Source: Lytechinus pictus (lineage: Eukaryota). Taken from it: a DNA stretch of 64,000 nt. Positions 44,412 through 49,129 of the stretch are shown here, in pieces. The stretch's first letter is position 1. Each line of letters opens with the position of its first letter. The stretch is from positions 29,264,001 through 29,328,000 of the forward strand of contig NC_087261.1 of assembly GCF_037042905.1 (NCBI RefSeq), read 5' to 3'. The notes beneath the pieces were generated by a model. The model did no database searches. It was given only the letters and a program-made list of their open reading frames with translations, and had not been told where the DNA came from. Both the position numbers and the translations under genes were made by a program.

Positions 44412-44541
44412 CGCCATTACATAAAAGAAGGAAAACCCGGACGATCTCAGGTTAGGGGTGAAGGTAGTTTATTACCGTGACCGAGTCAACCATAAAGTAT
44501 GGAACGCTATACGAATCACAAACAATTAACACATAGTGGCG
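44412..44541 (-). repeat. 3' LTR
   Basis: cgccattacata...cacatagtggcg, contains AATAAA on the minus strand. Confidence 0.9.
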
Positions 44542-45970
44542 TGACCACTTTTTCTCCTTCCCGTGATTATTTAAGATTGTATACATTTATACAAGCAAAT
44601 CCAAAAATTTCTACTGACAGCTAACTATCGAATTAAAACAGAATACAGCTCTACACCTCAATGACAAAACAGGCATTTACTTAACAACAATCATTTCAAT
44701 CTTACTTTTCCTTCAACAAGTACCAACTGAACTATCATCTTTAAAATGTAAATTAAAACACCTGCTAATGGAATAGCCTCTTGTGACGTAAATATCTTTC
44801 AACTGACAACTGAAAATGCACATTGATAGGCAATACATGGTAACATACCTAAACTCTATACTTGGCTAAAACTTTTACACTATTACAACTTAAACAGTTT
44901 TCAGTTCAAAAATTCAATAAGACATAATACATAAACTAATATGCCAAGTAACAAGGTGCACAAACTATATCAACAAGCATGTTATTCGTTTAACAAAATG
45001 CATATACGCCTAGATTTCAAACAAAAGATAAATACATGTAAGAGCAACTCAACAATCAAAATATACTTTAAGTCACCATTTCTCTCCTTCTTCCCGAAAA
45101 GAAGAGATCTGCACACTCTACACAAGCTAGCATGTATACATGTACATGTATACAAAAGCCTGTAGCAATACTTAAAAACATATGATAAACAATTTCCATA
45201 CGATCAAATATCAATTCACTTAAAAAATAAAGGAAAAATCCAAAACAAACATACGCGTTCCGAAAAGGGGACACAAAGTAAGATAGGAAACAAACATAAT
45301 TAACCAGGCAGAAAATAACTGCTGACTTCAGGGAACTGACTGGAGAAAAGCAATCAATATAATTATACTGTGTCTAAACGAAATCAATCACTACACTCCG
45401 CAAAGAGGGCACTATGCTATAAAACATGTAAAATACTGCATATGAAAAGGATAACAGGCACTGTCAACACCATCAACATATAACATCATCAAAGTCATGT
45501 CATAAATGCAAGTTTATAACAAAGGCATTGGGTAATAAAGGCAGAGAAAAAAGGCAATCCTATCAATTATATTCTCAGTAAAAAAAACATGATAAAAAAA
45601 AAAATGGTATCATCGTTATAAAAAATACAAGAGATAGACGCAATCAATAAACAAGTGCATCCATTGAAACAAGACATCAGCAATTACACAACCTTTCATT
45701 CGCAAGTGCAACCAAGAAGTAACAAACGCACCAACCTCACAACCAAGGTAATGCAAACCCACATGAACACACACTAAATGTAACCAACAAACATCAGCAA
45801 TAAGTCACATATCACAAATGATTATCAAACAGAAACCAAAAATCTAAAAATAAGATAATTAATGAGCGAGACATGTAAAAGCAAAATAACTGGGAAACAA
45901 AAGTTAAAAATTCAAGGTTATAACTTGTGGAAAACAAAGTCCAAATCATCAAAGTCCAGATGACAAAGTA

Positions 45971-48649
45971 TCAGTCCTTTTGGCTGCCTAGTATAGGCAT
46001 CAACCAAGTGGGGTCAAAGTCCAGTAGAATGTGGGGAAGGGGCTCTTCAACAAGGTGAGGCCAACGATAAACATGTAAGATTCCTGAATGTCTATTGGGT
46101 ACGAGATGACCTGGACCTGCATGGGGAAGGGCAGCCAGAGTTCTCTCGGACAAAGGATCCAATCCGGCTTCTAGTGAGGGCGGTCGGGGTCCACAGTTCC
46201 AAGGGGTAAGACTCCAGGTAAGGTAGGCGTCACAGCAGGTAGGACCAGGCAAGGAAGGCAGGCCAAGGTCTAGCATAGAATGACCAGTGAAAGAGGCCTG
46301 CCGATGACAATCATAGGTTCTGTCATTAAGAGTGACCATGTAGCTAGTCACCGGAGAAGGCAATGAATGAACGCCCACCACAAGATCGGACTTGCCATTG
46401 TACTCAACTAAAGGCTGTCTAGTACAGTGAAGATCTGTATCTCCCGAACATGGACCAAATGGATCAAGATAGCTACCACGAATGGGGTCAGTAGTTGAAG
46501 CAGGAACATTGGCATCAGGAGGATATGTCGGCTTAAGCGTGGCATAGTTGTCATGGTAACGAATGTCGGGAACTGAGCACATGGGCTCAACGACACGAGA
46601 GGCGTGCGAGTCGCGATCTATGGACATCGACACGGACCTAGTAGTGACGGGGTCACGTCGGCTATGCATCTCTGGAGATGTCCCATACGAACAGTCAATG
46701 CTGGAGTACTCTTTGTAAGTACTCAAAGCGGCTATGGAGTTGTCAGAGAGTTTACATCCGTTCGAGCTGCCATGATACGATTCAACGACCGGTGTGTTGA
46801 CCGCGAAGAGACCTGTTGTTCGTGTACGATCAACAACATGGTTATGACAGTACGACTCGAATGCTCGTTTGCGACGAGCATAGTAGCTGCGATATGATGT
46901 AGCACTGCGAGACGAATCGGAATCCGGAGCGTGTTTGGTACGACTGTCGCGATTCGAATCGGCTATGGTCCTATCGATATCGTATTTAGTATCCGAACGC
47001 TTAGGCGTGCAACGATCTGTTCTAAGATTGACTTGCGAGTAACTGTCAGGGAAATACACAACATCAGAGTGCTCAACACCATCGACATATGACGAACTAA
47101 CAGGCACAGAGCTATGCTCAGTAATAAAGACCGGAGGACCTGGAACATTTACATGTTCCTCTTGGAACCTGCAAGCAAACCGACAATACACAGCCAAGAA
47201 TCCAACCGCAACAGGATTGCTGTAAACATCTTTAACTGTATCAGGGAGTTCATAGGCATGGAGTGTACTTGCAACACAATTTGGTTTGCAATAGACCTCA
47301 TGATACGTGTCTGAGAGATCGTGTTCAGTGTTAGGTATGATGTCATTAGTTATACCTTGTAAGATTTTGACATTGTTGTACCCATGTTTAGACATGTTAT
47401 TGAGATCAACTGATGGATCAACCTCACTTTCATCTACATTCATGGTTTCCTGAGAGATGTTGTGACTTATCATTTCACCAGCACTCTCAAGTAAGATGTT
47501 ATAACATATCATGTCACTTTCAATCATGTCACCTTCATTCTCATGTAAGATGTGATTATCACTCATGTCATCTTCATTCTCCTGTAAGATGTTGTCATCA
47601 ATCACTGTGACACCTTCACTCTCAGGTAAGATGTTATCATCACTCATCGTGTCACCTTCATTCTCGTGTAAGATGTTATCATCACTCACCATGTCACCTC
47701 CAAACTCATGTAAGATGTCATCATTCACTGTGTCACCTTCACTCTCGCGTAAGATGTTATCATCATTCATTGTATCACCTTCACTCTCATGTAAGATGTT
47801 ATCACCACTCATCATGTTATCTTCGTTCTCATGTAAGGTGTGATCATCACTCATCATGTCACCTTCAGACTCATGTAAGCTGTTATCATCACTCATTGTG
47901 TCATCTTCATTCTTGTGTGAGATGTTATCATCACCCATCGTGTCACCTTCATTTTCATGTGAAATGTTATCAGTATCAGTATCACTTATCATGTCACCTT
48001 CACACTCATGACAGGTGTTTCCTTCACTCTCATATCCAGAATCATAGTAACCATGGTTACTGATACTGAGGGGTGCACCACACTCATGTTCACTCACAGT
48101 CATGTCACAATGGGAGAACACTTCGCTCACCAGGCATGCATTGGATGTACATGTATCAACAATTGCACATTTAATCTTCTTCTCAGTCTTGTCATCAAGG
48201 CAAACTGTTGGACTGTCCGGCTTTCTCTCATGTGTGTGTTGTACTAAGCTACGGTATGTATGCTGTGGTTGTGTGAGATCTGTAGGCTGGTGTTCATTGA
48301 AATCATGGTAAATGAACTCAAGTCCAAAGTCACCGAATGTTATTAAACCTTTGGAAGGCCTAACAATCACATCGTTGTGCTCCATGAACGGTGCACCGAC
48401 GAGGATGTCACCTCGGAGACCTAGACCTACAAATGCATCATCTGCAATCACTAAACCATCAAACCATAGATTATAATCCTCGTAAGATAGCACAAAAGAA
48501 CTACTGCCAATCACACTCGACCTGGGAATGGGGAATCCCCCAACCGAAGGAATGTTATCATCAGCATCAAACTCGGAAAAATCAACACTGTCATAATCAA
48601 CAACATCAAATTCAATATCACAATGATCAACAACTGATTTGCTCACCAT
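45971..48649 (-). CDS. 892-aa LTR-element ORF: degenerate retropepsin C-terminal half, acidic 14-aa tandem repeats, highly diverged pol-like remainder
   Basis: VIGSSSFVLS...FDGLVI...DILVGAPFMEHNDVIVRPSKGLITFG resembles a Gypsy aspartic protease. HENEGDTMSDDNIL-type repeats. No RT YxDD or integrase motifs recognised. Confidence 0.7.
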   Translation of the reverse strand: MVSKSVVDHCDIEFDVVDYDSVDFSEFDADDNIPSVGGFPIPRSSVIGSSSFVLSYEDYNLWFDGLVIADDAFVGLGLRGDILVGAPFMEHNDVIVRPSKGLITFGDFGLEFIYHDFNEHQPTDLTQPQHTYRSLVQHTHERKPDSPTVCLDDKTEKKIKCAIVDTCTSNACLVSEVFSHCDMTVSEHECGAPLSISNHGYYDSGYESEGNTCHECEGDMISDTDTDNISHENEGDTMGDDNISHKNEDDTMSDDNSLHESEGDMMSDDHTLHENEDNMMSGDNILHESEGDTMNDDNILRESEGDTVNDDILHEFGGDMVSDDNILHENEGDTMSDDNILPESEGVTVIDDNILQENEDDMSDNHILHENEGDMIESDMICYNILLESAGEMISHNISQETMNVDESEVDPSVDLNNMSKHGYNNVKILQGITNDIIPNTEHDLSDTYHEVYCKPNCVASTLHAYELPDTVKDVYSNPVAVGFLAVYCRFACRFQEEHVNVPGPPVFITEHSSVPVSSSYVDGVEHSDVVYFPDSYSQVNLRTDRCTPKRSDTKYDIDRTIADSNRDSRTKHAPDSDSSRSATSYRSYYARRKRAFESYCHNHVVDRTRTTGLFAVNTPVVESYHGSSNGCKLSDNSIAALSTYKEYSSIDCSYGTSPEMHSRRDPVTTRSVSMSIDRDSHASRVVEPMCSVPDIRYHDNYATLKPTYPPDANVPASTTDPIRGSYLDPFGPCSGDTDLHCTRQPLVEYNGKSDLVVGVHSLPSPVTSYMVTLNDRTYDCHRQASFTGHSMLDLGLPSLPGPTCCDAYLTWSLTPWNCGPRPPSLEAGLDPLSERTLAALPHAGPGHLVPNRHSGILHVYRWPHLVEEPLPHILLDFDPTWLMPILGSQKD
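47440..48050. repeat. Coding minisatellite, ~42-bp unit, about 14 copies
   Basis: atcactcatcgtgtcaccttcattctcatgtaagatgttatc variants, all frame-preserving. Confidence 0.9.
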
Positions 48650-48999
48650 ATTAATGGTACAACCACTTCGTAGTTCGTACCTCTACTTGTACGAAGCAAT
48701 CACTCTCCTGCTGCCCCTGCACGACAGCAGGAAAATGGGGGGCTGGAGCGCGCCGCCTCTTCGACGCATCACCAAAAATGGGCCCGGTCACGGCAATGGC
48801 GCATCGCTGCGTTGATGCAAATCCATACATCTTCAGAAGTATGTGGGACTACGATTCACCTAAGAAAAAGAGCTAACCTGACATTATCACGAAAAAGTTA
48901 CATTCGAGCGCCCGGTCCCACGGATTGGATAAAGTTCCATAGGTGCCTGGAATAACACTGAGTCGAATGGTCTAGGTTCAGATCCCGACGGTGCCACCA

Positions 49000-49129
49000 C
49001 GCCATTACATAAAAAAAGGAAAACCCGGACGATCTCAGGTTAGGGGTGAAGGTAGTTTATTACCGTGACCGAGTCAACCATAAAGTATGGAACGCCATAC
49101 GAATCACAAACAATTAACACATAGTGGCG
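49000..49129 (-). repeat. 5' LTR
   Basis: Near-identical to 44412-44541, followed on the minus strand by the PBS. Confidence 0.9.

What the first reader, a model, noticed from the sequence alone, without database searches (positions are those of the whole stretch)
44412..49129. Young LTR retroelement with non-canonical 5'-CGCCA...TGGCG-3' LTR ends
Seen: LTR boundaries are fixed independently by the end of direct-repeat identity, the adjacent PBS (TGG...) and the PPT, and both LTRs start and end in CG with a 5-bp terminal inverted repeat. LTRs are 130 bp and differ at only 2 positions. Established: LTR integrases normally act on TG...CA ends. Inference: a lineage whose integrase recognises a different end, which standard LTR finders would miss.
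Basis: partly seen in the sequence, partly recalled or inferred. Interest (0 to 1): 0.7.

Follow-up and report, generated by a model that had tools for sequence, protein, structure and literature searches.

The report
Troyka hitch-hiker carrying a dead protease
This is a young, enzyme-less copy of an already described group of jumping genes (Troyka) whose CG ends are normal for that group; its one unusual trait is a gene for a protease-like protein that has lost its catalytic residue yet is conserved by selection, and which likely docks onto a helper element's working protease.

Summary
In detail: two 130-bp LTRs (2 differences) reading CGCCA…TGGCG, with a PBS and PPT on the minus strand. It is not a new lineage. 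CG…CG ends with 3-bp target duplications define Troyka/Kuafuortervirus (PMC12440569, PMC11673190). 12 of 15 paired copies of this family and 2 of 2 solo LTRs have 3-bp TSDs. The same genome holds two Gag-Pol families with Troyka hallmarks (LADD RT, CX2CX8HX4C knuckle, DD35E integrase). The element has no RT or integrase, so it must borrow them; the helper is not pinned down. This copy is damaged: its ORF is frameshifted and its flanks lack a matching TSD. Beyond what I found in print, the family's only ORF starts with a Troyka protease homologue whose catalytic Asp is Arg. Its shared variants show purifying selection (4 nonsynonymous to 16 synonymous), and it falls in a clade where 24 of 26 database proteins carry R/K/H there. 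A model supports pairing with the active protease (0.79 versus best control 0.00), probably from family likeness. The scan already noted this on other copies in this genome.

The parts
49000..49129 (-). 5' LTR, 130 bp, CGCCA...TGGCG
48982..48999 (-). primer-binding site, 15 of 18 nt complementary to the 3' end (+CCA) of host tRNA-Leu (AAG/TAG); 18 of 18 in 2 of 14 tabulated copies
48683..48830 (-). ORF start and basic N-terminal leader; out of frame with the main ORF in this copy because of a short insertion near 48673 (frame from the start codon ends after 59 codons)
48302..48682 (-). retropepsin-like pseudo-protease domain; Arg (48668-48670) at the catalytic Asp position
47513..47971 (-). 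acidic tandem repeat, about 42-bp / 14-residue unit, copy number variable among family members
45971..48682 (-). main open frame, 903 codons; no Pfam match; no Gag, RT, RNase H or integrase
46178..46201 (-). short C-terminal W..GPRPP motif, shared with 10 of the 38 non-Asp database homologues and 0 of 104 Asp-bearing ones
44548..44562 (-). polypurine tract, followed by a 6-nt spacer (44542-44547) ending in CA
44412..44541 (-). 3' LTR, 130 bp
44367..44411 (.). left flank: piece of a host repeat cut at the LTR edge; its 3 terminal bases do not match the right flank
49130..49237 (.). right flank: piece of a different, abundant host repeat cut exactly at the LTR edge; its upstream part is missing here

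Best explanation
This is a recently inserted, now damaged copy of a non-autonomous Troyka (Kuafuortervirus) LTR retrotransposon with CG ends, no RT and no integrase, which likely moves by borrowing Gag-Pol from an autonomous Troyka family in the same genome. Shown: ends, PBS, PPT, 3-bp TSDs in sister copies, two Pol-bearing Troyka families, and a protease homologue with Asp replaced by Arg under purifying selection. Inferred steps: (1) the element RNA is packaged into a helper's particle; (2) tRNA-Leu primes minus-strand synthesis at the PBS and the PPT primes the plus strand; (3) the helper's DD35E integrase trims the cDNA to a CG-3' end (both inner junctions read TGGCG|TG on their own strand) and joins it with a 3-nt stagger. 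(4) The dead protease most likely pairs with the protease domain of the helper's Gag-Pol and so helps bring its own RNA into the particle or tunes maturation (about 0.4 for this step). The missing TSD of this copy most likely reflects loss or exchange of host DNA at the insertion site.
For: Termini. TSD: 12 of 15 paired family copies, 2 of 2 solo LTRs; over all Troyka-like families 29 of 31 resolved elements (48 loci tried, 17 unresolved) versus 81 of 930 cross-paired flanks. Published definition: PMC12440569. Pol-bearing families A and B: open frames of 1636 and 1652 codons, CX2CX8HX4C, DSG protease, LADD RT, HHCC and DD35E, all 9 resolved of 20 loci with 3-bp TSD; their RT motifs match published Kuafuortervirus rows by eye. 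The window ORF's only similarity to those Gag-Pols is the protease (42% over 62 aa, E 1e-8 in a one-sequence search). Primer. Selection on the dead protease: shared variants 4 N: 16 S (pN/pS 0.07, P 2.4e-7), private variants 34 N: 12 S (0.83), shared versus private P 8.5e-5. Clade of 30 non-Asp domains, SH-aLRT 100, 28 with R/K/H, including Diadema setosum and Lytechinus variegatus proteins. Complex model 0.79 versus best of 3 controls 0.00; runs share at least 78% of contacts, partner pLDDT at least 80; the mark was reached by 51 of 78 solved complexes and 2 of 108 mismatches.
Against: No Pol-bearing family shares LTR sequence with this family, and A and B end TTTCG and TGTCG rather than TGGCG, so the helper is not identified; only 150 of 825 RT candidates were scored. 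This copy lacks the TSD. No RT tree with published references was built. The complex pass can come from likeness to solved retropepsin dimers and does not show binding or partner choice. Shared variants come from few recombining sub-lineages, so they are not independent events. A second dead-protease family (Val at the site) shows no constraint (9 N: 3 S). The C-terminal half evolves neutrally (pN/pS 0.97). Only 3 of 14 copies keep an uninterrupted ORF of 880 codons or more. RNA depth inside the element is 0-2.75 in three runs of one study. The tree is a quick one on 127 columns and the clade sits on a long, acidic-biased branch.
Confidence: 0.9

Rival explanations
1. It is a non-autonomous Troyka, but the dead protease acts mainly as a trans-dominant brake: it poisons helper protease dimers and limits Troyka activity, to the benefit of the element lineage or the host.
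For: The dimer face is retained in the model, with the active-site loops in contact. A basic residue facing the partner's Asp is kept in 24 of 26 database clade members. Recalled, not verified here: engineered HIV-1 protease monomers with Lys/Arg at Asp25 inhibit in trans (look-ups and searches did not retrieve that work).
Against: The selection is seen on variants shared among transposing copies, not on one fixed host locus, so it must benefit the element's own spread; a pure poison would block its own helper. Young copies with identical LTRs exist (6 of 14 at 100% identity).
Confidence: 0.2
2. The ORF has no helper-directed role: the domain is conserved only to fold or self-dimerise, or the open frame merely stabilises the RNA, and the element rides on cis signals alone.
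For: The tail is neutral at amino-acid level; one non-autonomous family keeps a Gag fragment instead and another keeps an unconstrained dead protease; most copies have broken ORFs. The domain is strongly acidic (mean net charge -15.5 versus -2.3), which could point to another ligand.
Against: Keeping a frame open does not need amino-acid conservation, yet the protease domain has pN/pS 0.07 while linker and tail have 0.86 and 0.97; the R/K/H preference and a conserved acidic flap persist across sea-urchin orders.
Confidence: 0.3
3. It is an undescribed LTR lineage, or a tyrosine-recombinase element, with its own end chemistry.
For: This copy has CG ends and no TSD, as some recombinase-type elements would.
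Against: Sister copies have 3-bp TSDs; the features match the published Troyka definition; the relatives encode a DDE integrase.
Confidence: 0.02

Closest known systems
Troyka LTR retrotransposons, non-autonomous sea-urchin elements (Kojima 2025, PMC12440569; main text read, parts 1-4 of 5 plus a term search; supplements not available)
   Same: CGCCA...TGGCG ends, 3-bp TSD, LTR within 100-400 bp, internal part within 1.5-7.7 kb, no functional Pol; the paper finds 62 of 70 non-autonomous elements in sea urchins and lists TTTCG, TGTCG and TGGTG 3' variants in a sea-urchin lineage, all seen in this genome.
   Different: The main text does not describe a retained, selected, catalytically dead protease ORF, a tRNA primer, or a helper ('tRNA', 'primer', 'catalytic' 0 occurrences). 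This copy lacks its TSD.
Kuafuorterviruses (Gong and Han 2024, PMC11673190; parts 1-2 of 3 read, supplement part 1 and a term search seen)
   Same: Same group; IADD/VADD/LADD RT motif as in families A and B; published example elements show the same TGGCG|TGGTGGCAGCGG LTR/PBS junction.
   Different: Defined by RT, so RT-less elements like this one were not covered.
Retropepsin-fold proteins such as the Ddi1 protease domain and retroviral proteases
   Same: Best structural matches of the model: Ddi1 domains (Foldseek E 0.25, probability 0.9; VIA Z 6.3, rmsd 4.1, 102 aligned), then EIAV and M-PMV proteases.
   Different: Weak scores on a pLDDT-61 model; catalytic Asp absent; acidic insertion in the flap region.
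Other non-autonomous LTR elements (LARD, TRIM, TR-GAG; recalled, not tested)
   Same: Keep LTR, PBS and PPT and borrow enzymes.
   Different: As recalled, they keep no ORF or only Gag, not a selected pseudo-protease.

Membership tests
Troyka / Kuafuortervirus | 5'-CG...CG-3' LTR termini (usually CGCCA...TGGCG) | tested here: met
   Window copy and 29 of 30 (5') / 28 of 30 (3') family LTR loci
Troyka / Kuafuortervirus | 3-bp target-site duplication (family level) | tested here: met
   12 of 15 paired copies and 2 of 2 solo LTRs; the 3 misses are the window copy and two copies with a damaged end
Troyka / Kuafuortervirus | 3-bp TSD at this very copy | tested here: not met
   CAT versus CTG; the two flanks belong to different host repeats, each cut at the LTR edge, so the site is rearranged
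Troyka / Kuafuortervirus | LTR 100-400 bp, internal part 1.55-7.7 kb | tested here: met
   130 bp and 4458 bp
Troyka / Kuafuortervirus | Troyka-type protease | tested here: met
   Homologous to the protease of families A/B; invariant SG, N, G.P..E.ND..RP; catalytic Asp absent
Troyka / Kuafuortervirus | Gag-Pol order ZF-RP-RT-RH-IN with CX2CX8-10HX4C and [ILV]ADD (autonomous members) | tested here: met
   Met in families A and B of the same genome; absent from this element, as expected of a non-autonomous member
Troyka / Kuafuortervirus | No GPF/Y motif in integrase | tested here: met
   None in family A's integrase region; family B's only GPF lies at residue 1622 in the Pro-rich tail, 236 residues past the catalytic Glu
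Troyka / Kuafuortervirus | RT phylogeny outside Metaviridae, with published Troyka RTs | tested here: inconclusive
   No tree with the published references was built; motif-level match by eye only
Metaviridae/Gypsy, Copia, BEL | TG...CA termini and 4-6-bp TSD | tested here: not met
   0 of 30 LTR loci read TG...CA; no 4- or 5-bp TSD in 31 resolved elements, one low-complexity 6-bp match
DIRS/Ngaro tyrosine-recombinase elements | Recombinase instead of integrase, no TSD, no tRNA PBS | tested here: not met
   TSDs, tRNA-Leu PBS and DDE integrase in relatives
Active retropepsin | D-[ST]-G catalytic motif | tested here: not met
   R-S-G in all 14 family loci where the motif was read

The most novel reading that the evidence does not exclude
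Sea-urchin non-autonomous Troyka elements form an old satellite lineage that encodes a dedicated pseudo-protease: a basic residue replaces the catalytic Asp so that the protein heterodimerises with the helper's protease inside Gag-Pol and uses this contact to load its own RNA or to control particle maturation. That would be a natural protease-decoy strategy for parasitising an LTR retrotransposon.
Probability: 0.35. Interest if true: 0.65.

Novelty: new variant of a known kind. Interest (0 to 1): 0.38.

Why it matters
The CG ends themselves matter only for annotation, since Troyka is under-called by TG/CA-based tools; that point is already in print. The genome offers young families with three different 3' ends (TGGCG, TTTCG, TGTCG) served by two known integrases, which makes end recognition testable with isolated enzymes. 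If the pseudo-protease reading holds, it shows that a non-autonomous LTR element can keep a protein-level hook on its helper and not only cis signals, and it explains why such elements abound in sea urchins.

Tried and rejected
Pfam found nothing in the window ORF or in four related non-autonomous ORFs. A search for a tRNA matching this family's variant PBS found only the elements themselves (12 hits), so a special primer tRNA was rejected in favour of tRNA-Leu with mismatches. ARAGORN and Rfam found no tRNA gene in five PBS-like hits; they are 3' tRNA fragments. One search's end extraction was faulty for 5 of 13 pairs (end-gap error) and was redone. No reciprocal junction for the TSD-less copy was found among the 39 LTR hits or in 100 kb of neighbouring DNA. 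Recombination between two independent copies was considered; both LTRs of this copy share a base at LTR position 116 that the other paired copies lack, which favours one insertion with loss of host DNA, though an assembly join is not excluded, since no read or contig was shown to span the left junction. No indexed RNA holder was listed. Selection tests on two further families had too few copies (2 and 3). The careful tree did not finish. Literature searches that found no description of a selected dead protease in non-autonomous LTR elements: (listings only), plus term searches in PMC12440569 and PMC12859917. The HIV trans-dominant precedent stayed unverified.
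Full report
Observation. The two direct repeats are at the stated coordinates, 130 nt long with 2 substitutions. The element reads on the minus strand: 5' LTR 49129-49000, PBS 48999-48982, a long ORF, PPT 44562-44548, a 6-nt spacer, 3' LTR 44541-44412. Both LTRs read CGCCA...TGGCG. A search of the window's genome gave 39 LTR matches; of the 30 fetched, 29 start CGCCA, 28 end TGGCG and none reads TG...CA. The ends are therefore a family trait and not chance.

Target duplication. 12 of 15 paired copies have a 3-bp TSD, as do both solo LTRs examined. The misses are one copy with a clipped 5' LTR, one with a clipped 3' LTR, and the window copy. 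Across all related families, 48 loci were tried, 31 resolved and 29 had a 3-bp TSD, against 81 of 930 cross-paired flanks. The window copy's right flank is an abundant host repeat whose upstream part, seen in paralogues and in hundreds of reads, is missing. Its left flank is a piece of another repeat that continues differently in public contigs. Both LTRs share a base that other paired copies lack. I infer one insertion with loss of host DNA; exchange between sibling copies or an assembly join is not excluded.

What it is. CG...CG ends with 3-bp TSDs define Troyka. Kojima 2025 (PMC12440569; parts 1-4 of 5 read; supplements unavailable) reports CGCCA in 573 and TGGCG in 522 of 603 LTRs, and 62 of 70 non-autonomous elements in sea urchins. 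Gong and Han 2024 (PMC11673190; parts 1-2 of 3) describe the same group as Kuafuorterviruses with [ILV]ADD in RT. A protein 99% identical over the queried domain is labelled Lytechinus pictus by NCBI, which fits a sea-urchin host.

Helpers. End-motif searches led to a Pol-bearing locus, and its RT found 36 matches at E 1e-20 or better (150 of 825 candidates scored). Twenty were fetched and fall mainly into two families: A (187-bp LTR, ending TTTCG) and B (141-bp LTR, ending TGTCG), with open frames up to 1636 and 1652 codons, CX2CX8HX4C, DSG, LADD, HHCC and DD35E; all 9 resolved elements have 3-bp TSDs. Their RT motifs match published Kuafuortervirus rows by eye; no tree with those references was built. 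Neither family shares LTR sequence with the window family, so the helper is inferred and not identified. At least four other non-autonomous families with CG-type ends, 4.3-5.8 kb, are present.

Replication. The PBS matches the 3' end of host tRNA-Leu (AAG/TAG) at 15 of 18 nt, and at 18 of 18 in 2 of 14 copies, as expected if the primer is copied back into the PBS (established retroviral mechanism; own knowledge). Both inner junctions read TGGCG|TG on their own strand, which suggests trimming to a CG-3' end (inference). Copies are mosaics of segments about 1.5% and 13% diverged, consistent with template switching. 6 of 14 copies have identical LTRs, so the family is young. RNA depth inside the element was 0-2.75 in about 6% of each of three runs of one study, mostly in the orientation expected for element-sense RNA, and cannot be assigned to this copy.

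The ORF. It has no Pfam match. Its only similarity to the Gag-Pols is the protease, with Arg in place of the catalytic Asp in every family copy read. Acidic 14-residue repeats and a long tail follow. In this copy a short insertion near 48673 separates the start codon from the main frame; 3 of 14 copies have an uninterrupted ORF of 880 codons or more. Across 15 loci, shared variants in the domain are 4 nonsynonymous to 16 synonymous (pN/pS 0.07, P 2.4e-7), private ones 34 to 12 (0.83); linker and tail are neutral (0.86, 0.97) (pairwise dN/dS 0.05-0.15 between divergent copies). The shared variants come from few sub-lineages. A different family with Val at the site shows no constraint (9 to 3).

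Wider family. A profile search found 1059 proteins at E 0.001 or better and listed 150. In a quick tree of 149 domains (rows with a gap at the site or under 95 residues dropped), 30 non-Asp domains form one branch with SH-aLRT 100; 24 of its 26 database proteins have R, K or H at the site. They are strongly acidic. Of 10 looked up, 2 are named, from Lytechinus variegatus and Diadema setosum. The genomic context of the unnamed ones was not seen, the profile was biased to such domains, and the branch is long. A model (pLDDT 61) best matches Ddi1 and retroviral proteases with weak scores. A complex with the family B protease scored 0.79 against a best control of 0.00, with at least 78% shared contacts and partner pLDDT at least 80; the mark was reached by 51 of 78 solved complexes and 2 of 108 mismatches. 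Retropepsin dimers are solved structures, so this shows a retained dimer face and not binding.

Verdict. The element is a non-autonomous Troyka (about 0.9); the termini are known. The selected pseudo-protease was not found in print by searches or in the main text of PMC12440569, but unseen supplements may list this family. Four earlier notes of this scan reached a similar reading on other copies in this genome; my reading was noted before seeing them, and they are not independent support.

Noticed in passing
window 13501-14469 (+) and 15845-17233 (-): Two facing ORFs that look like a PIF/Harbinger pair (Myb/MADF-like and HARBI1-like DDE nuclease); label from recall, not searched.
   Followed up: no
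window 55996-57207 and 62661-63881 (-): Two near-identical intronless GPCR-like ORFs inside a tandem duplication that starts at the element's right flank (49307-51046 matches 58113-59880 at 93%).
   Followed up: partly
window 4890-6095 (-): 401-codon ORF of unknown kind with a Pro/Ser-rich tail.
   Followed up: no
L069:6763 to L068:9147 (G000:C12 about 6821760-6833150): A Pol-bearing family A element nested inside a non-autonomous element of another Troyka family; the outer element has a 3-bp TSD.
   Followed up: partly
L071:60-400: A family copy whose 5' LTR is followed by a perfect 18-nt tRNA-Leu PBS, about 100 unrelated bases, an inverted PBS/LTR end and a second LTR end with the usual PBS; it looks like a reverse-transcription rearrangement.
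   Followed up: no
L092, L093, L053, L056, L058; 11 exact hits: Dispersed 3' fragments of tRNA-Leu with encoded CCA, i.e. retroposed primer-like pieces.
   Followed up: partly
L054, L055, L059: A non-autonomous Troyka family that keeps only the Gag N-terminus fused to a long acidic tail and no protease.
   Followed up: partly
TSDs of 29 elements: Middle base is A or T in 28 of 29 and the third base is G in 19 of 29 on the element strand, a possible target preference; no background test was run.
   Followed up: no
L079 (G000:C8 about 23688000-23702500): A family copy ends within a few hundred bases of a family B Pol-bearing element on the opposite strand.
   Followed up: no
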